From Oscillospiraceae bacterium (GTDB lineage: Bacteria > Bacillota > Clostridia > Oscillospirales > Oscillospiraceae), in contig JAZOBQ010000016.1 in assembly GCA_045596005.1 (NCBI GenBank), forward strand, positions 1,783 to 65,782: 64,000 nt of DNA. The letters run 5' to 3'. Position 1 is the stretch's first letter, and every line of letters begins with the position of its first letter. Below are positions 15,847 to 39,843 of this stretch, in pieces. The position numbers were made by a program, and so were the translations under genes. Under the pieces are notes generated by a model. It ran no database searches and was not told where the DNA came from. It saw nothing but the letters and a program-made list of their open reading frames with translations.

Positions 15847-16845
15847 TTATATCGCACCGGAGAGGGGGCAAGCATCGCTGCCGAAGCGGAAATGACCATC
15901 CGATGAATCGTTCAGCGCCGGACAGGGGCGGCAGTAATTGCAAAGCCTGCAATCTGCACAGGGATTATCTTTTGCCTGATCTTCGGCCTGCCTGAGCTGA
16001 CGCAGAATTTCCGAGCGTGTCCAGTATTCTTCTGCGCTTGACCATTTCTCAGGATAGTTCAAGTGGCGGCAGGGTGTGAACTGACCGTCCACATCTATGC
16101 AATAGCTGCACAATGCGGCTGTGCAGCCTTTGTAAAGACCGCGGTTAGTATTTCCCCAGAGCTTATTGTCGCAGCTGAGAGCCAGCAGTGAGGAAAAACA
16201 ATGCTGGATTATCAGCTCCACATTTCCGTGGCTGCGTTTCGCAAGACCTGCGACATATTTCATTTGTTCAAGTGTCGGATAGGTATCCAGTTTACCTTCG
16301 GATGTGGGTTTGGGGTCGATGATAATTATGCCGCCGACCTCATATTTTTGAGCCAGAGCGATCATATCGGGAAGCTTCGCCACAGAGTTTCTGTGCATGA
16401 CCCAGTTTATCATTGTGTTTGGAAACTGCTTTTTCTGTAAAAGCTCCAAAGCATCGATCGCATATTGATATCCGTCGCGTGTTTCTGCGTTGTCCGTTTC
16501 GGTAGGACCGTTGAGCGAGACGCAGATCATATCGATGCCGGCACTTACGAGTTTGTCGAGAGCCTCTTCGTCAAAGTGCCAGCCGGAAATGGCAATGCTG
16601 GGCGCGATGCCAAGGCGGCGCGCCGCGGCAACGACCTCGTAAAGATGCGGATAGCACATGGTTTCTCCTCCGCTGAGTTCCACATGCTCCACGCCGAGAC
16701 GGGCAGCTTCTTCCAGCGCTTTTATCGCTGCCTCCGCGGGAATGTCCTTTCCGCCCTCCAGAGTGCAGTAACATTGTGGGCAGCGGAGGGGGCAGCGCGT
16801 GGTAAGTTCGATGTTTATTCCGTTTGGGATATACTCAATGCTCAT
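15847..16845 (-). CDS. radical SAM / SPASM-domain peptide-modifying enzyme
   Basis: 332 aa. CPLRCPQC (CxxxCxxC) at residues 18-25, 'ELSGGE' SAM motif and a C-terminal Cys-rich SPASM-like region ('CTAALCSYCIDVDGQFTPC', 'CADCRLCNYCRPCP'). GAGGTG RBS 8 nt upstream. Immediately downstream of two precursor genes. No N-terminal extension that could hold an RRE. Confidence 0.9.
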   Translation of the reverse strand: MSIEYIPNGINIELTTRCPLRCPQCYCTLEGGKDIPAEAAIKALEEAARLGVEHVELSGGETMCYPHLYEVVAAARRLGIAPSIAISGWHFDEEALDKLVSAGIDMICVSLNGPTETDNAETRDGYQYAIDALELLQKKQFPNTMINWVMHRNSVAKLPDMIALAQKYEVGGIIIIDPKPTSEGKLDTYPTLEQMKYVAGLAKRSHGNVELIIQHCFSSLLALSCDNKLWGNTNRGLYKGCTAALCSYCIDVDGQFTPCRHLNYPEKWSSAEEYWTRSEILRQLRQAEDQAKDNPCADCRLCNYCRPCPALNDSSDGHFRFGSDACPLSGAI

Positions 16846-16865
16846 TTTTTTCCACCTCTACCATT

Positions 16866-16892
16866 GAGAGCTGCCCACATCGGGCAGCTCTC
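16866..16892 (-). promoter_or_regulatory. intercistronic stem-loop between precursor genes and the radical SAM gene
   Basis: Perfect 11-bp stem GAGAGCTGCCC (16866-16876) / GGGCAGCTCTC (16882-16892) with a 5-nt loop, in the 62-nt gap. No U-tract follows on the minus strand. Confidence 0.6.
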
Positions 16893-16907
16893 AGATGCAT
16901 ATATCTC

Positions 16908-17225
16908 TTAGCGGCTCTTATACCACTTGTAGATGGCGAGACCGGCACCGCCGATAGCGATGGCTGCCTTTGCCACTGCCCATGCGGTAGCGGTGACGGC
17001 AACGCCGCCGCTTACGTCCTCGAGCGCGTTCTCGTCAAGCTCGTCGCCGGGATTAGTGAGCTGATCGAGTGCACGGCCGATTTCGAGTACTTCTTCCAGA
17101 GTGAACTCAACGCCGTTTTCGGCAAAGAGACTGCGAACGGCCTCGGGATTTTCCTGAGCGAGCATTTTTTCAACAAAAGCCTTGTCTTCCATGAGCTTGG
17201 ACAAAACTGCATTTTCAATAGCCAT
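16908..17225 (-). CDS. precursor peptide P1: Nif11-like leader, double-glycine site, 31-aa Cys-free hydrophobic/cationic core
   Basis: 105 aa. The leader '..EDKAFVEKMLAQENPEAVRSLFAENGVEFTLEEV..DELDENALEDVSGG' has Nif11-type shape, with hydrophobics at -4/-7/-12 from GG. Core: VAVTATAWAVAKAAIAIGGAGLAIYKWYKSR. GGAGG RBS upstream. Confidence 0.85.
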   Translation of the reverse strand: MAIENAVLSKLMEDKAFVEKMLAQENPEAVRSLFAENGVEFTLEEVLEIGRALDQLTNPGDELDENALEDVSGGVAVTATAWAVAKAAIAIGGAGLAIYKWYKSR

Positions 17226-17260
17226 ATTATATATCCTCCCCTGATTTTTTTCTTGAAGTT

Positions 17261-17581
17261 TTACCAGATGGTCTTTTTGCCGGCGGCTTTTCTGGCCTTG
17301 TTGACCTCTGCCATCGTGTTGGCGAACAGGGCAACACCGGAAGCGACGATAGCGATCTCTGCCAGCAGACCGCCGGAAACGCCTTCGAGTGCGGCTTCGG
17401 AAAGCTCGTCTTCGTTTCCGCCGATAACCATTTCGGCGATCTGGTTGATCTGCTCAAGTGTGAAGTCCACACCCTTATCGGCGAATGAGCTCTGCACGTC
17501 TTCGGGATCTTCCATAGCTGCGATGGCGGCAACGAAATCCTTGTCGCCCATCAGGTCTTTTATCTTGTTGATGTTTTCCAT
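17261..17581 (-). CDS. precursor peptide P2: Nif11-like leader, double-glycine site, 35-aa Cys-free core
   Basis: ORF 17261..17833 trimmed to ATG 17581 (AAGGA 8 nt upstream), giving 106 aa. Leader 'MENINKIKDLMGDKDFVAAIAAMEDPEDVQSSFADKGVDFTLEQI..DELSEAALEGVSGG'. Core LLAEIAIVASGVALFANTMAEVNKARKAAGKKTIW. Confidence 0.85.
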   Translation of the reverse strand: MENINKIKDLMGDKDFVAAIAAMEDPEDVQSSFADKGVDFTLEQINQIAEMVIGGNEDELSEAALEGVSGGLLAEIAIVASGVALFANTMAEVNKARKAAGKKTIW

Positions 17582-17586
17582 ATCAT

Positions 17587-17745
17587 TTATCCTTTCTTTT
17601 TGTTTATTATCAATGCCAGTACAAGGCCGGCCACGAGTCCCAGTATGGTGAAGATGAACGAGGTCCCGGCAAGATAGTCTATAACAATGCCGACCACGCC
17701 GCCGATCAGTATGTCGGAGATGAAGCTTAAAGTTTTGATTTTCAT
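17587..17745 (-). CDS. 52-aa two-TM small membrane protein (AtpZ/AtpI-like pattern); candidate immunity or accessory protein
   Basis: Below the ORF-track size cutoff; translated by hand. AAAGGAGG lies 6 nt upstream of ATG 17745. Product: MKIKTLSFISDILIGGVVGIVIDYLAGTSFIFTILGLVAGLVLALIINKKKG, with stop TAA at 17587-17589. It ends 5 nt before the P2 start. Confidence 0.6.
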   Translation of the reverse strand: MKIKTLSFISDILIGGVVGIVIDYLAGTSFIFTILGLVAGLVLALIINKKKG

Positions 17746-38969: not shown

Positions 38970-38997
38970 AAGACCGAAGCTCCGAAAACAAATAAAA

Positions 38998-39035
38998 CCC
39001 GCATCGATTGGCCGAGCTTTCCCAATCGATGCGGG
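38998..39035. terminator. bidirectional terminator between kinase 2 and precursor P3
   Basis: Perfect 14-bp stem CCCGCATCGATTGG (38998-39011) / CCAATCGATGCGGG (39022-39035). Flanked by an A-run and a T-run, between convergent genes. Confidence 0.8.
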
Positions 39036-39055
39036 TTTGTTTTAGCTTTTGCGTA

Positions 39056-39406
39056 TCAGCAGCCGAGGCTGTGCAGAGCCTTGGAGATGGAGCGGGTTAC
39101 GAGATAGGCGGCGAGGAAGGAGGCCAGACCGACACCGGCGATCTTGGCGGCGGCGATCAGAATGGCGGTGGTGACAGCGAAACCGCCGCTGACATCGTCG
39201 AGATCCTCCTCGCTGAGCTCGTCGTTTTTGCCCTCGACGACCTTTGCGATCTCTTCCATGAAGGTCTTGGTTTCATCGAGACTCAGCTCGAGTCCGTTTG
39301 CGTTGAGCTTTTCCTGCATTTCCACCAGAGTTTCGGAGCTGAACAGATCTTTTACGAATGCCTCGTCGTTAAACAGCTTTTCTACTTTTTCATTGAAGTT
39401 GGTCAT
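39056..39406 (-). CDS. precursor peptide P3: Nif11-like leader, double-glycine site, 41-aa core ending in Cys
   Basis: ORF 39056..39472 trimmed to ATG 39406 (GGAGG 9 nt upstream), giving 116 aa. Leader '..NDEAFVKDLFSSETLVEMQEKLNANGLELSLDET..NDELSEEDLDDVSGG'. Core FAVTTAILIAAAKIAGVGLASFLAAYLVTRSISKALHSLGC. Confidence 0.85.
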   Translation of the reverse strand: MTNFNEKVEKLFNDEAFVKDLFSSETLVEMQEKLNANGLELSLDETKTFMEEIAKVVEGKNDELSEEDLDDVSGGFAVTTAILIAAAKIAGVGLASFLAAYLVTRSISKALHSLGC

Positions 39407-39423
39407 TTTTCTATACCTCCTGA

Positions 39424-39759
39424 TTAATCTCTGCGGGGATCTTTGCAGGCTTTTTTCTTGCCGTCGTGCCATCCGGCTTTCGCACCGGCAATGGCGCTTA
39501 CAACGATGAGAGTTCCGAAAATGAGTATCATTCCGTTGAAGCCGCCGGAGACGGAATCGAGTTCGTCTTCGCCGAGTTCACCGCCGGCGTTGTTGATCAT
39601 TTCGCCGAGCTTTTCGATCTCTTCTATGCTGAACTCGAGACCCTTGGCTGCGAAGGCTTTCTGAGCTTCCTCGGCGGTGGTGATCTCCGCGAGAGCGGCA
39701 ACGAATTCTTTATCTGCAAATGCGTCTTCTGCGAGTTTCTTGAGCTGATCAATATTCAT
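39424..39759 (-). CDS. precursor peptide P4: Nif11-like leader, double-glycine site, 38-aa core with one Cys
   Basis: 111 aa. Leader 'MNIDQLKKLAEDAFADKEFVAALAEITTAEEAQKAFAAKGLEFSIEEI..GEDELDSVSGG'. Core FNGMILIFGTLIVVSAIAGAKAGWHDGKKKACKDPRRD. GGAGG RBS upstream. Confidence 0.85.
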   Translation of the reverse strand: MNIDQLKKLAEDAFADKEFVAALAEITTAEEAQKAFAAKGLEFSIEEIEKLGEMINNAGGELGEDELDSVSGGFNGMILIFGTLIVVSAIAGAKAGWHDGKKKACKDPRRD

Positions 39760-39814
39760 GTTTTGTTCCTCCGATTTATTGAAGTTGTTTTTTCCTTAAT
39801 GTGTTTACGTCTAT

Positions 39815-39843
39815 ATATACACAGCTCCTTTTCAGTCGTTACA
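39815..39843 (-). promoter_or_regulatory. island promoter motif copy B (TGTAAC-N15-GTGTATAT)
   Basis: The minus strand reads TGTAAC GACTGAAAAGGAGCT GTGTATAT, about 55 nt upstream of the P4 ATG (39759). Confidence 0.5.

What the first reader, a model, noticed from the sequence alone, without database searches (positions are those of the whole stretch)
15847..39843. ~24-kb island fusing a Nif11-leader two-peptide toxin/export system with TIR-FHA, STAS, Hanks-kinase, PP2C and vWA signalling under one alternative sigma factor
Seen: every gene between the terminators at 15.8 kb and 39.9 kb belongs to one of two themes that are interleaved here.
(i) Ribosomal peptide production and export: four GG-site precursors, rSAM/SPASM, HlyD, C39-ABC and a second ABC.
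(ii) Phospho-Ser/Thr and NAD-type signalling: ECF-like sigma, STAS, TIR-FHA-FHA, 2 PP2C, 2 kinases, vWA and 3 LRR surface proteins.
From the sigma gene (28270) down to the LRR lipoprotein (18638), genes overlap or are less than 20 nt apart. The divergent plus arm (28361-38969) is similarly tight. One promoter-like motif heads both arms and both precursor loci.
Established: NHLM export trios with Nif11/NHLP precursors have been described (Haft and colleagues, 2010). vWA+PP2C+kinase triads, and kinase/phosphatase/FHA gating of type VI secretion, have been described separately.
Inference: a single regulon in which surface sensing gates production or export of two-peptide toxins, with a TIR enzyme embedded. 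I know of no described system with this composition. No integrase, transposase or flanking repeats were seen, so mobility is not evident.
Basis: partly seen in the sequence, partly recalled or inferred. Interest (0 to 1): 0.85.

Follow-up and report, generated by a model that had tools for sequence, protein, structure and literature searches.

The report
Sigma-controlled peptide-toxin exporter with TIR-FHA switch
Gut and rumen Clostridia carry a conserved, apparently undescribed gene cassette that joins a bacteriocin-type peptide exporter to its own sigma factor, a phosphothreonine-reading TIR (NAD-cleaving type) protein, a STAS protein and a phosphatase; this points to a new way of controlling peptide-toxin release.

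Summary
However, the 24 kb is three layers, not one unit.

(A) A conserved cassette: ECF-type sigma, then the NHLM trio (HlyD, C39-ABC, ABC2), STAS, TIR-FHA-FHA, LRR lipoprotein and PP2C. With it go Nif11/GG precursors and a small protein whose leader ends in Ala-Ala. The order was the same in 10/10 TIR-FHA loci with enough flank. 18/19 close HlyD relatives in metagenomes carry the TIR gene; distant NHLM loci carry none.

(B) An independent five-gene module: kinase, LRR, vWA, TM protein, LRR. It lies beside the cassette only here and in one relative. Elsewhere it sits next to Tad-pilus genes.

(C) A radical-SAM gene with no counterpart in any relative.

An ECF-like motif, TGTAAC-N15/16-GTGTA, occurs 4 times (0.1 expected). 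It precedes PP2C, both precursor pairs and the small gene, at the same places in relatives, but not the sigma gene.

The TIR keeps the catalytic Glu and FHA1 keeps its phosphothreonine-binding residues. Acidic "TV" threonine motifs mark the TIR-FHA linker and the tail of module B's TM protein.

Best reading: sigma-driven, phosphothreonine-gated production and export of two-peptide bacteriocins. The TIR's role is unknown. I found no description in the searched literature.

The parts
15786..15835 (.). Bidirectional hairpin terminator closing the preB-preA-rSAM unit. A second hairpin at 15742-15778 ends the + strand esterase gene.
   Evidence: Sequence read; scan.
15847..16845 (-). Radical-SAM/SPASM enzyme. 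Accessory: specific to this genome.
   Evidence: Pfam Radical_SAM 4.5e-22. No NCBIfam family cutoff is reached. No homologue in any of about 160 related loci.
16908..17225 (-). Precursor A: Nif11-type leader, VSGG site, hydrophobic core.
   Evidence: TIGR03798 33.6 bits (cutoff 32.3). TIGR03949 class IIb 21.7 bits (cutoff 21.5).
17261..17581 (-). Precursor B: Nif11-like leader, VSGG site.
   Evidence: TIGR03798 30.2 bits, below cutoff. Sequence.
17587..17745 (-). 52-aa membrane ORF, first gene after the promoter motif. Candidate immunity peptide.
   Evidence: Only weak Pfam hits. Function inferred.
17805..17830 (-). ECF-like promoter motif TGTAAC-N15-GTGTA.
17844..18548 (-). PP2C phosphatase 1. 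Conserved cassette member.
   Evidence: PP2C_2 1.4e-14. 33-66% identical orthologues at the same position.
18588..18614 (-). ECF-like promoter motif with N16 spacer, upstream of PP2C-1.
   Evidence: The same position carries the motif in L001, L002, L004, L005, L006 and L163.
18638..20005 (-). BspA-type LRR lipoprotein (lipobox LMVGC). Conserved cassette member.
   Evidence: LRR_5 8.9e-79. Orthologues follow TIR-FHA in most loci.
20015..21370 (-). TIR - disordered linker - FHA - FHA protein.
   Evidence: TIR_2 1.5e-18 and FHA 2.1e-22. AF2 pLDDT 86; Foldseek best matches are FHA domains such as MDC1, CT664, OdhI and GarA. E84 aligns with the catalytic Glu of AbTIR and Cat1. T235 is near-invariant.
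21386..21751 (-). Single-domain STAS protein.
   Evidence: STAS 9.1e-8. Present between ABC2 and TIR in relatives, including loci where tblastn missed it.
21763..24714 (-). ABC2 (NHLM permease/ATPase without active peptidase). It has a duplicated N-terminal beta-rich domain and a C39-like region.
   Evidence: TIGR03797 731 bits (cutoff 709). N-terminal alignment. The domain always sits at the N-terminus of proteins mostly 700-870 aa long, plus many shorter fragments.
24732..26897 (-). ABC1: C39 peptidase-ABC exporter.
   Evidence: TIGR03796 936 bits (cutoff 853). Peptidase_C39 7.6e-32.
26899..27735 (-). Short HlyD-type adaptor.
   Evidence: TIGR03794 172 bits (cutoff 156).
27728..28270 (-). 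ECF-type sigma factor (regions 2 and 4 only). It overlaps the HlyD gene by 8 nt.
   Evidence: TIGR02937 107.6 bits (cutoff 42.9). Sigma70_r2 and r4_2.
28287..28312 (+). ECF-like promoter motif pointing away from sigma, toward the small gene.
   Evidence: Conserved in L001, L002, L004, L005, L007, L088, L093, L109 and L161.
28361..28555 (+). 64-aa protein: conserved N-terminal helix, PCAT-type recognition motif ending Ala-Ala instead of Gly-Gly, variable acidic tail.
28902..30275 (+). Module B: Hanks kinase, TM segment, extracellular TPR.
   Evidence: Pkinase 5.6e-40. 45-61% identical in L163, L164 and L165.
30319..31764 (+). Module B: secreted or anchored TPR/CHB_HEX/LRR protein.
31765..33870 (+). 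Module B: 2-TM vWA protein with a DxSxS MIDAS motif.
   Evidence: VWA 7.9e-17. Only about 20 homologue clusters.
33872..34444 (+). Module B: 2-TM protein whose tail carries four acidic-x-T-V repeats.
   Evidence: Repeat arrays are present in all four homologues.
34460..36016 (+). Module B: TPR/LRR lipoprotein (lipobox MLTAC).
36037..36795 (+). PP2C phosphatase 2. It follows the small gene directly in the closest relatives.
   Evidence: 57-60% identical in L001 and L007.
36840..38969 (+). Hanks kinase 2 with an extracellular discoidin (NADase-type glycan-binding) domain.
   Evidence: Pkinase 8.4e-38 and PF25302 6.6e-21. NF047619 100 bits (cutoff 38).
38990..39043 (.). Bidirectional terminator between kinase 2 and precursor C.
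   Evidence: Inverted repeat I6.
39056..39406 (-). Precursor C (VSGG site).
   Evidence: TIGR03949 19.5 bits, below cutoff. Sequence.
39424..39759 (-). Precursor D (Nif11-like leader, VSGG site).
   Evidence: TIGR03798 30.1 bits, below cutoff.
39818..39843 (-). ECF-like promoter motif upstream of preD/preC.

Best explanation
The region holds three things of different standing.

(A) The core, about 17.2-28.6 kb plus 39.06-39.84 kb, is a conserved clade-specific cassette of gut and rumen Clostridia. An ECF-type sigma factor is co-transcribed with an NHLM-type peptide exporter (HlyD, C39-ABC, ABC2), a STAS protein, a cytoplasmic TIR-FHA-FHA protein and an LRR lipoprotein.

The sigma factor's inferred promoter is TGTAAC-N14-(C/T)GTGTAT. 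It drives three kinds of gene:
- the Nif11-leader/Gly-Gly precursors, which come in pairs with class-IIb-like hydrophobic cores;
- a PP2C phosphatase;
- a small protein that carries the exporter's leader-recognition motif but ends in Ala-Ala.

The C39 domain would cut after Gly-Gly, and the ABC pair would export the two-peptide toxins.

Inferred control layer: membrane Ser/Thr kinases with extracellular TPR, LRR or discoidin sensors phosphorylate acidic 'TV' threonines. These sites are T235 in the TIR-FHA linker and the repeat array in the tail of the module-B TM protein. The FHA domains read these phosphothreonines. This would bring the TIR domains together (TIR NADases need self-association) and/or gate the exporter or sigma activity. 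The sigma-dependent PP2C would reset the switch.

(B) The kinase-LRR-vWA-TM-LRR block is an independent sensor module that has been inserted between the small gene and PP2C-2/kinase-2 in this lineage.

(C) The rSAM gene is a lineage-specific passenger in the precursor operon.

Shown: gene content, conservation, the motif and the conserved residues. Inferred: who phosphorylates whom, what the TIR does, and antimicrobial activity.
For: Synteny from the TIR-FHA side:
- All 10 loci with at least 7 kb upstream have sigma-HlyD-ABC1-ABC2-STAS-TIR/FHA, at 25-57% TIR-FHA identity. One further NCBI contig without DNA shows the same.
- These include the cultured Schaedlerella arabinosiphila DSM 106076 (L033).

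Synteny from the HlyD side:
- 19/19 metagenome loci with at least 40% HlyD identity and at least 5.8 kb downstream have sigma. 18/19 have the TIR gene.
- A STAS ORF was confirmed by eye in 3 loci where tblastn missed it.
- Distant NHLM loci (HlyD at most 28%, ABC1 about 41%) have no TIR or STAS.
- Rearranged variants keep the same parts: L011 is sigma-STAS-TIR/FHA-PP2C-small protein; L010 has kinases inside the operon.

Promoter motif:
- 4 copies in the window against 0.1 expected.
- 51 distinct instances across relatives, at orthologous positions.
- Only 1 hit in 970 kb of unrelated TIR loci, and 0 in distant NHLM loci.

Exporter membership: the three NCBIfam cutoffs are passed.

Peptides: VSGG sites with L(-12), L(-7) and V(-4) match the experimentally defined PCAT recognition rules (PMC6363468).

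TIR-FHA residues:
- E84 aligns with the catalytic Glu of AbTIR, BtTir and Cat1 and is at least 90% conserved.
- FHA1 keeps the invariant G265-R266, H285 and S302-N304-G305-T306. Its nearest matches are FHA domains such as MDC1, CT664, OdhI and GarA.
- T235 in 'DDxxTV' is the only near-invariant residue in an otherwise hypervariable disordered linker.

Recurrence of the acidic T-V/E-L motif:
- Arrays occur in all four homologues of the module-B TM protein.
- The motif occurs N-terminal to FHA domains in L033 and in L098, L104 and L106.
Against: - There are no expression, phosphorylation, NADase or antimicrobial data.
- The motif is assigned to this sigma factor only by co-occurrence. It is missing upstream of the sigma operon itself and from the Lachnospiraceae variants L009 and L033.
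- The STAS protein has no conserved Ser/Thr at the SpoIIAA S58 position. No RsbW-type anti-sigma kinase is present, so its role is unexplained.
- Some loci (L003) have no kinase, PP2C or precursor within 10 kb.
- Module B is absent from nearly all cassettes.
- Only precursor A passes the curated thresholds for Nif11 leader and class IIb bacteriocin. The others fall just below them.
- Nothing explains why a peptide exporter should need an NAD-cleaving domain.
Confidence: 0.55

Rival explanations
1. A cell-cell signalling (pherotype or quorum-sensing) system rather than a weapon. The exported peptides, and especially the small Ala-Ala-leader protein with its hypervariable tail, are signals. The variable LRR/TPR/discoidin kinases sense them and feed back on the sigma factor.
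For: - The small gene sits under the same promoter motif as the precursors, which would give auto-induction logic.
- Its leader motif is in register with the precursor leaders (hhalign E 9e-5).
- L(-12), L(-7) and V/I(-4) are kept in 15/15 members, while the tails are hypervariable.
- The receptor-type kinases differ from locus to locus.
- From my own knowledge, class II bacteriocin loci are classically induced by a GG-leader pheromone.
Against: - Ala-Ala is not a known C39 cleavage site. Gly-Gly, Gly-Ala and Gly-Ser are (PMC6363468).
- The four main cores look like class IIb membrane-active peptides. TIGR03949 hits them at or near its cutoff.
- No link between peptide tail and receptor was tested.
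- The Lachnospiraceae variants lack the small gene next to sigma.
Confidence: 0.2
2. An anti-phage or abortive-infection conflict system. The TIR NADase is the effector, switched on through kinase/FHA signalling. The exporter and peptides are secondary.
For: - The TIR has an intact catalytic Glu and is most similar to NADases of defence systems (Cat1, AbTIR).
- There are weak PADLOC hits to ThsB and Argonaute-TIR.
- The kinases hit generic defence-kinase models (PD-T4-6, MADS6).
- PP2C-1 hits candidate system PDC-M21C (6e-20).
Against: - No known defence-system architecture is matched: no ThsA, Argonaute, CBASS or retron partner.
- The TIR-FHA gene is fixed inside an exporter operon, and its regulon consists of secreted-peptide precursors.
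- The kinase hits are generic Hanks-kinase similarity.
- The flanks are ordinary metabolic genes, not defence islands.
Confidence: 0.1
3. The adjacency of module B (kinase-LRR-vWA-TM-LRR) to the cassette has no functional meaning. It is an unrelated surface-signalling module that landed there.
For: - Module B is a self-contained block, 35-61% identical in L163, L164 and L165.
- It is absent from about 30 other cassette loci.
- In L165 it lies by Tad-pilus genes with its own FHA protein and PP2C, and no cassette within 10 kb.
- A 346-nt gap without the ECF motif separates it from the small gene.
Against: - It lies beside the cassette again in L163, in a different, convergent arrangement. Recurrence after rearrangement argues for selection.
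- In the window, the only FHA protein available to read it is TIR-FHA-FHA.
- Its TM protein carries the same acidic 'TV' motif as the TIR-FHA linker.
- Other cassettes carry other kinases at the same place.
Confidence: 0.35

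Closest known systems
NHLM/NHLP bacteriocin export trio with Nif11/NHLP precursors (Haft et al. 2010, PMC2887384; TIGR03794/03796/03797/03798)
   Same: All three exporter genes pass the curated cutoffs. The precursors have long Nif11-type leaders and a Gly-Gly site, hypervariable cores and several paralogues per genome.
   Different: - The described systems sit with TOMM or LanM enzymes, or alone. No sigma factor, STAS, TIR, FHA or PP2C is mentioned.
- This clade has a short 278-aa HlyD.
- Its ABC2 has an extra N-terminal domain, duplicated here.
- Its cores appear unmodified and class-IIb-like.
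LahT-type PCAT with Nif11-leader peptides in Lachnospiraceae (Bobeica et al. 2019, PMC6363468)
   Same: The same recognition logic applies: L(-12), E(-8), L(-7), V/I(-4), then Gly-Gly. It is present in all four precursors.
   Different: - There is a second, peptidase-less ABC.
- A conserved family of small proteins keeps the recognition motif but has Ala-Ala at -2/-1.
- A dedicated regulatory set is attached.
Class IIb two-peptide bacteriocin loci with pheromone + histidine kinase + response regulator control (own knowledge; lactobin A/cerein 7B family TIGR03949)
   Same: - Precursor genes come in pairs.
- The cores are rich in small-xxx-small (GxxxG-like) motifs.
- A dedicated C39-ABC exporter is present.
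- There is a candidate small immunity ORF and a candidate leader-bearing regulatory peptide.
   Different: - The leaders are Nif11-type, about 70 aa.
- Regulation would go through an ECF-type sigma factor, Hanks kinases, PP2C and FHA instead of a two-component system.
- A TIR domain is present.
Threonine-phosphorylation pathway of type VI secretion (PpkA/PppA/Fha1) and FHA-regulated ABC transporter Rv1747 (own knowledge; TIGR03354 TagH hit)
   Same: A Hanks kinase (with vWA in the sensing part), a PP2C and an FHA protein are encoded with a secretion machine. Phosphothreonine reading by FHA is the proposed gate.
   Different: - The machine is a type-I-like peptide exporter in a Gram-positive organism.
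- The FHA protein carries a TIR domain.
- TagH scores 60.6 against a cutoff of 120.
- No T6SS genes are present.
GarA/OdhI FHA switches
   Same: GarA and OdhI are among FHA1's top sequence and structure matches. An acidic Thr motif lies just N-terminal of the FHA domain, as in the GarA/OdhI self-binding switch (own knowledge).
   Different: There are two FHA domains, and an N-terminal TIR takes the place of a metabolic-enzyme-binding function.
Filament-activated TIR NADases (AbTIR, Cat1; PDB 7UXU, 8G83, 9MUD)
   Same: The TIR profile matches them best, and the catalytic Glu is aligned and conserved.
   Different: Activation here would be by FHA-phosphothreonine contacts rather than by a cyclic nucleotide or a substrate mimic. 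The context is an exporter operon, not a defence locus.
SpoIIAA/RsbV partner-switching modules and FlgM-sigma28 export checkpoint (own knowledge)
   Same: - STAS, PP2C and an alternative sigma factor are encoded together.
- A small protein next to sigma, under a sigma-type promoter, carries an export signal. This resembles FlgM logic.
   Different: - There is no RsbW/SpoIIAB kinase.
- The phospho-Ser position is not conserved.
- Binding of the small protein to sigma is untested.

Membership tests
NHLM/NHLP bacteriocin export system (TIGR03794/03796/03797) | HlyD-type, C39-ABC and peptidase-less ABC genes each reach the curated NCBIfam cutoff. | tested here: met
   172 vs 156, 936 vs 853 and 731 vs 709 bits.
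NHLM/NHLP bacteriocin export system (TIGR03794/03796/03797) | Nif11- or NHLP-type precursors with a Gly-Gly site encoded nearby. | tested here: met
   preA reaches TIGR03798 (33.6 vs 32.3). preB (30.2) and preD (30.1) fall just below; preC gives no hit. All four have VSGG with L(-12), L(-7) and V(-4).
NHLM/NHLP bacteriocin export system (TIGR03794/03796/03797) | Proteolytic removal of the leader and export of the core. | not testable with these tools
   Only the C39 domain match is available (7.6e-32).
Class IIb two-peptide bacteriocins (lactobin A/cerein 7B, TIGR03949) | The core matches the family model above its cutoff. | tested here: inconclusive
   preA 21.7 vs 21.5 (passes by 0.2 bits). 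preC 19.5 (fails). preB and preD give no hit.
Class IIb two-peptide bacteriocins (lactobin A/cerein 7B, TIGR03949) | Two adjacent precursor genes plus an immunity gene; activity needs both peptides. | tested here: inconclusive
   There are two adjacent pairs, and a 52-aa TM ORF precedes one pair. Activity is not testable.
ECF (group 4) sigma factors | Only regions 2 and 4, and a match to the sigma70-ECF model. | tested here: met
   TIGR02937 107.6 vs 42.9. Pfam r2 and r4_2 hits; no r3 or r1 hit was listed.
ECF (group 4) sigma factors | Co-transcribed cognate anti-sigma factor and an auto-regulated promoter. | tested here: not met
   - The gene after sigma is HlyD.
- No anti-sigma domain was found.
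- The motif points away from sigma.
- The divergent small protein is only a candidate.
Partner-switching module (STAS antagonist / RsbW-type kinase / PP2C) | HATPase-type anti-sigma kinase present. | tested here: not met
   No such domain occurs in any island gene.
Partner-switching module (STAS antagonist / RsbW-type kinase / PP2C) | Conserved phosphorylatable Ser at the SpoIIAA S58 position. | tested here: not met
   That column holds P, N, S, A, F or G across 13 orthologues. TIGR00377 scores 33.9 against a cutoff of 53.45.
T6SS threonine phosphorylation pathway (TagH/Fha1-PpkA-PppA) | The FHA protein reaches the TagH model, and T6SS core genes are present. | tested here: not met
   TIGR03354 60.6 vs 120.25. 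No T6SS genes are in the window region.
Thoeris / other TIR defence systems | ThsB-type TIR together with ThsA, or another cognate partner. | tested here: not met
   The only PADLOC TIR hits are weak (1.9e-5). No partner protein was found.
vWA-MoxR 'ternary' conflict systems (Kaur et al. 2020, PMC7159879) | vWA protein coupled to a MoxR AAA+ ATPase and VMAP. | tested here: not met
   No AAA+/MoxR domain occurs in the island. The paper mentions a kinase+PP2C+vWA triad only in actinobacterial GTPase systems.
Catalytically competent TIR NADases | Conserved catalytic Glu in the (W/N)C/TxxE helix. | tested here: met
   E84 aligns with the Glu of AbTIR, BtTir and Cat1. It is at least 90% conserved in 49 sequences.
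Catalytically competent TIR NADases | NAD+ cleavage or cyclisation activity. | not testable with these tools
   This needs an enzyme assay.

The most novel reading that the evidence does not exclude
The cassette is a new kind of secretion checkpoint with two parts.

1. The small protein is an uncleavable leader mimic. It keeps L(-12), L(-7) and V(-4) but has Ala-Ala instead of Gly-Gly. It reports exporter occupancy or competence to the sigma factor. It could do so either as an exported FlgM-like anti-sigma factor or as a ligand of the peptidase-less C39-like domain of ABC2.

2. TIR-FHA-FHA polymerises on kinase-written phosphothreonine arrays. This would couple NAD+ cleavage, or a TIR-made nucleotide signal, to the opening or shutting of a peptide exporter.

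That would be the first TIR enzyme working in the control of secretion rather than in immunity.
Probability: 0.2. Interest if true: 0.85.

Novelty: new variant of a known kind. Interest (0 to 1): 0.7.

Why it matters
NHLM/PCAT exporters and Nif11-leader peptides are abundant in gut anaerobes, but how their production is controlled is largely unknown.

This work defines a conserved regulatory set: an ECF-type sigma factor with a recognisable promoter, STAS, PP2C, Hanks kinases and an FHA reader fused to a TIR domain that looks catalytically competent.
- It gives a directly testable regulon.
- It places a TIR domain outside the usual immune or defence context.
- It predicts a family of 'double-alanine' leader mimics.
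- One carrier, Schaedlerella arabinosiphila DSM 106076, is cultured, so the predictions can be tested.

If the peptides are active two-peptide bacteriocins, the hypervariable cores under one promoter motif are also a ready mining handle for narrow-spectrum antimicrobials from the gut and rumen microbiota.

Tried and rejected
- Exact look-up of the window's own TIR-FHA protein found nothing on record. The cluster look-up gave no accession or organism name. The source organism is therefore known only as a relative of Oscillospiraceae MAGs.
- The word-indexed homologue search with the ABC2 N-terminus returned nothing. That search was wasted.
- The fold of the ABC2 N-terminal domain remains unresolved.
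  - Pfam gave no significant hit: only FapA_N at E 0.018, far below cutoff.
  - A profile search against PDB sequences gave nothing.
  - hhalign against the E. coli CRP cNMP domain gave 1.6% probability.
  - Single-sequence AF2 gave pLDDT 33, which is unusable.
  - The exhaustive search shows only that the domain always sits at the N-terminus of proteins mostly 700-870 aa long, plus many shorter fragments.
  - The idea that it senses a TIR product therefore stays pure speculation.
- Rfam found nothing in 15-41 kb, including the 346-nt gap.
- STAS as a classical phospho-switch is rejected: the acceptor position is not conserved.
- rSAM as the maturase of the system is rejected as a general feature. 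It has no homologue in any related locus, and the cores contain no Cys apart from preC's C-terminal Cys and one in preD's basic tail.
- Mobile-element signatures: no flanking direct or inverted repeats.
- PADLOC gave no system-level match.
- Literature searches found no description of this cassette. They combined NHLM, Nif11 or PCAT with TIR, FHA, STAS or sigma. The library excludes most subscription journals.

Full report
**1. What is there**

Minus strand, 28.3 to 15.8 kb:
- an ECF-type sigma factor (regions 2 and 4 only; TIGR02937 107.6 bits);
- a short HlyD adaptor (TIGR03794, 172 vs cutoff 156);
- a C39-peptidase ABC exporter (TIGR03796, 936 vs 853);
- a second ABC (TIGR03797, 731 vs 709);
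- a 121-aa STAS protein;
- a 451-aa TIR-FHA-FHA protein;
- a BspA-LRR lipoprotein;
- a PP2C;
- two Nif11-leader precursors ending VSGG;
- a radical-SAM/SPASM enzyme.

From sigma to the lipoprotein the gaps run from -8 to 17 nt.

Plus strand:
- a 64-aa gene (28361-28555);
- a 346-nt gap;
- a tight block of kinase+TPR, TPR/LRR, vWA, a 190-aa 2-TM protein, an LRR lipoprotein, PP2C and kinase+discoidin.

Two more VSGG precursors lie on the minus strand at 39.06-39.76 kb. Hairpin terminators bound the units at 15.74-15.83, 38.99-39.04 and 39.87-39.91 kb. There are no flanking repeats. No integrase or transposase domain turned up in the genes scanned. Both flanks encode carboxylesterases.

**2. The promoter-like motif**

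TGTAAC-N15-GTGTA occurs three times in 64 kb (0.3 expected). Allowing N14-17 adds a fourth copy (0.1 expected). All four lie in intergenic DNA, correctly oriented. They sit upstream of PP2C-1 (18614), the 52-aa ORF/preB/preA operon (17830), the small gene (28287) and preD/preC (39843).

The motif recurs at the orthologous places in relatives: before the divergent small gene, before PP2C and before the precursors. This holds in L001, L002, L004-L008, L010, L012, L045 and L163. There are 51 distinct instances with consensus TGTAAC(A/G)-N13-(C/T)GTGTAT. Only one hit occurs in 970 kb of unrelated TIR loci, and none in distant NHLM loci. Its AAC...CGT layout is that of ECF promoters (own knowledge). 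Assigning it to this sigma factor is inference from co-occurrence.

**3. Is the juxtaposition conserved?**

The TIR-FHA-FHA protein has about 100 homologue clusters, nearly all unnamed (the few source names given read Clostridia bacterium MAG). A GTDB genome scan places its full-length relatives in Oscillospiraceae, Lachnospiraceae and other Clostridia, mostly gut and rumen MAGs. They include the cultured Schaedlerella arabinosiphila DSM 106076.

From the TIR-FHA side: in all 10 loci with at least 7 kb upstream, the order is sigma-HlyD-ABC1-ABC2-STAS-TIR/FHA, at 25-57% TIR-FHA identity. One further NCBI contig without DNA shows the same. An LRR-lipoprotein orthologue, a PP2C and the precursors usually follow.

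From the exporter side: a metagenome scan with a HlyD alignment gave 19 loci with at least 40% HlyD identity and at least 5.8 kb downstream. All 19 have sigma, and 18 have the TIR gene. A STAS ORF is present even where tblastn missed it (checked in three loci). Distant NHLM systems (HlyD at most 28%, ABC1 about 41%) have neither TIR nor STAS.

Rearranged variants keep the same parts list:
- L011 is sigma-STAS-TIR/FHA-PP2C-small protein with no exporter in between.
- L010 has kinases inside the operon.
- L033 has kinase, a 143-aa FHA protein and sigma at the head of the operon.

It is a real, clade-specific cassette.

**4. What is not part of it**

The rSAM, vWA and 190-aa TM genes have no homologue in any of these loci. 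The vWA protein has only about 20 homologue clusters.

Context look-ups show that kinase-1, TPR/LRR, vWA, the TM protein and the LRR lipoprotein form an independent five-gene module:
- In L163 (48-60% identity) it lies convergent to PP2C-1/LRR/TIR-FHA/STAS/ABC2. This is the same neighbour in a different arrangement.
- In L164 it sits at a contig end.
- In L165 (Subdoligranulum, 35-45%) it lies by Tad-pilus genes, a DUF6382-FHA protein and a PP2C, with no cassette within 10 kb.

In the closest relatives the small gene is followed directly by a PP2C-2 orthologue, with or without a kinase (L001, L002, L007). In the window, the module therefore looks inserted into a 'small gene - PP2C - kinase' arm.

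**5. Clues to mechanism**

*(a) Peptides.* All four precursors have L(-12), L(-7), V(-4) and G(-2)G(-1). These are the positions shown experimentally to matter for a Lachnospiraceae PCAT protease (PMC6363468). The cores are hydrophobic helices with small-xxx-small motifs and basic ends. preA passes the class IIb lactobin/cerein model by 0.2 bits, and preC just fails.

*(b) The small protein.* It forms a family across the clade. It has an N-terminal amphipathic helix and then the same recognition motif. 15/15 members keep L/M/I(-12), L(-7), V/I(-4) and Ala-Ala at -2/-1. A hypervariable tail follows. hhalign puts the motif in register with the precursor leaders (E 9e-5). It should be recognised by the exporter, but Ala-Ala is not a known cleavage site.

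*(c) TIR.* A profile of the TIR part matches Cat1, BtTir and AbTIR best. E84 aligns with their catalytic Glu and is at least 90% conserved.

*(d) FHA.* The AF2 model (pLDDT 86) has two FHA folds after a disordered linker. Foldseek and phmmer hit FHA domains such as MDC1, CT664, OdhI, GarA and EmbR. FHA1 keeps invariant G265-R266, H285 and S302-N304-G305-T306.

*(e) Candidate phosphosites.*
- T235, in 'DDxxTV' just before FHA1, is the only near-invariant residue of the linker.
- The same acidic T-V/E-L motif forms arrays in the cytoplasmic tail of the module-B TM protein in all four homologues.
- It also precedes FHA domains in L033 and in the 700-aa TIR-FHA proteins of L098, L104 and L106.

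*(f) STAS.* It lacks a conserved acceptor at the SpoIIAA S58 position, and no RsbW-type kinase exists. Classical partner switching is therefore not supported.

*(g) ABC2.* It has an N-terminal beta-rich domain, duplicated in the window, plus a His-less C39-like region. The domain is found only at the N-terminus of such transporters. Its fold could not be determined.

**6. Best model and rivals**

Most likely (0.55): a sigma-driven, phosphothreonine-gated system for producing and exporting two-peptide bacteriocins.
- Sensor kinases write acidic 'TV' phosphothreonines.
- TIR-FHA-FHA reads them. Clustering would activate the TIR and/or gate the exporter or sigma.
- The sigma-dependent PP2C resets the switch.
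- The Ala-Ala protein acts as a regulatory pseudo-substrate or an exported signal.

Rivals:
- a signalling or pherotype system (0.2);
- a TIR-based defence system (0.1; no known architecture is matched);
- for module B only, meaningless adjacency (0.35).

**7. Known or new**

The exporter trio and Nif11/GG precursors are the known NHLM kind (PMC2887384). Kinase/PP2C/FHA gating is known for T6SS and Rv1747 (own knowledge). I found no paper that combines them, or that describes TIR-FHA proteins, the Ala-Ala leader family or the promoter motif. The searched library omits most subscription journals.

Verdict: a new variant of a known kind, with a real and conserved core.

Noticed in passing
window 12056-15703: A 1215-aa ORF on the minus strand is fully antisense to a 1194-aa plus-strand gene (12083-15667). 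The plus-strand gene carries two BD-FAE/esterase domains and an internal ~1.5-kb duplication (13060-13609 vs 14593-15145). The plus-strand gene looks real and has its own terminator at 15742-15778. The antisense frame is probably a by-product.
   Followed up: partly
window 17587-17745 (-): A 52-aa hydrophobic ORF with a good RBS is the first gene after the promoter motif and lies ahead of preB. It gives only weak Pfam hits (ATPase_gene1, Hol_Tox).
   Followed up: partly
window 28556-28901: A 346-nt non-coding gap lies between the small gene and kinase 1. It has no Rfam match and no scanned terminator. Whether transcription reads through from the ECF-like promoter is open.
   Followed up: partly
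L033 (Schaedlerella arabinosiphila DSM 106076) 1-11200: A cultured carrier of a variant cassette: kinase, a 235-aa secreted protein, a 143-aa FHA protein with N-terminal 'EETVIL...ESTVFM', then sigma, HlyD, ABC1, ABC2, STAS and TIR-FHA (401 aa). It has no TGTAAC motif and no divergent small gene.
   Followed up: partly
L011 1-2870; L010 100-10413: L011 is a compact regulatory unit: sigma, STAS, TIR-FHA (one FHA), PP2C and an Ala-Ala small protein, with no exporter between them. L010 has ABC2, a precursor, an Ala-Ala small protein, TIR-FHA, PP2C, two large kinase/LRR proteins and STAS.
   Followed up: partly
L165 1-14150: In a Subdoligranulum contig the kinase-LRR-vWA-TM-LRR module lies next to Tad-pilus genes (TadE, DUF5702, two prepilin peptidases), a DUF6382-FHA protein and a PP2C. 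This hints that the module normally serves another surface apparatus.
   Followed up: no
L002 16281-17660; L163 99-1472: A conserved ~458-aa protein with a C-terminal FHA domain and a unique N-terminal region lies beside cassettes or extra precursor pairs in two loci. It has no counterpart in the window.
   Followed up: no
L014-L084: About 65 genome loci encode TIR-only relatives (24-51% of the query covered, typically 30-40%; 27-45% identical) in contexts without the exporter. What they accompany was not examined.
   Followed up: no
L098, L104, L106 (TIR genes ~15.9-18.2 kb): In a human-gut branch the TIR protein is 700-740 aa long. It has extra FHA-like domains and a coiled/TPR-like insert, and 'EDPxATV' precedes the last FHA.
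   Followed up: no
L002 13794-14075; L001 13789-14103; L008 13524-13880: Some relatives' precursors have proline-rich cores (for example IPWIIPRPRPIPSIPRLF) instead of hydrophobic helices. The same exporter clade therefore handles very different cargo types.
   Followed up: no
window 36840-38969: The extracellular part of kinase 2 matches the glycan-binding discoidin domain of streptococcal NADase (PF25302 6.6e-21; NF047619 100 bits). This suggests a carbohydrate cue.
   Followed up: no
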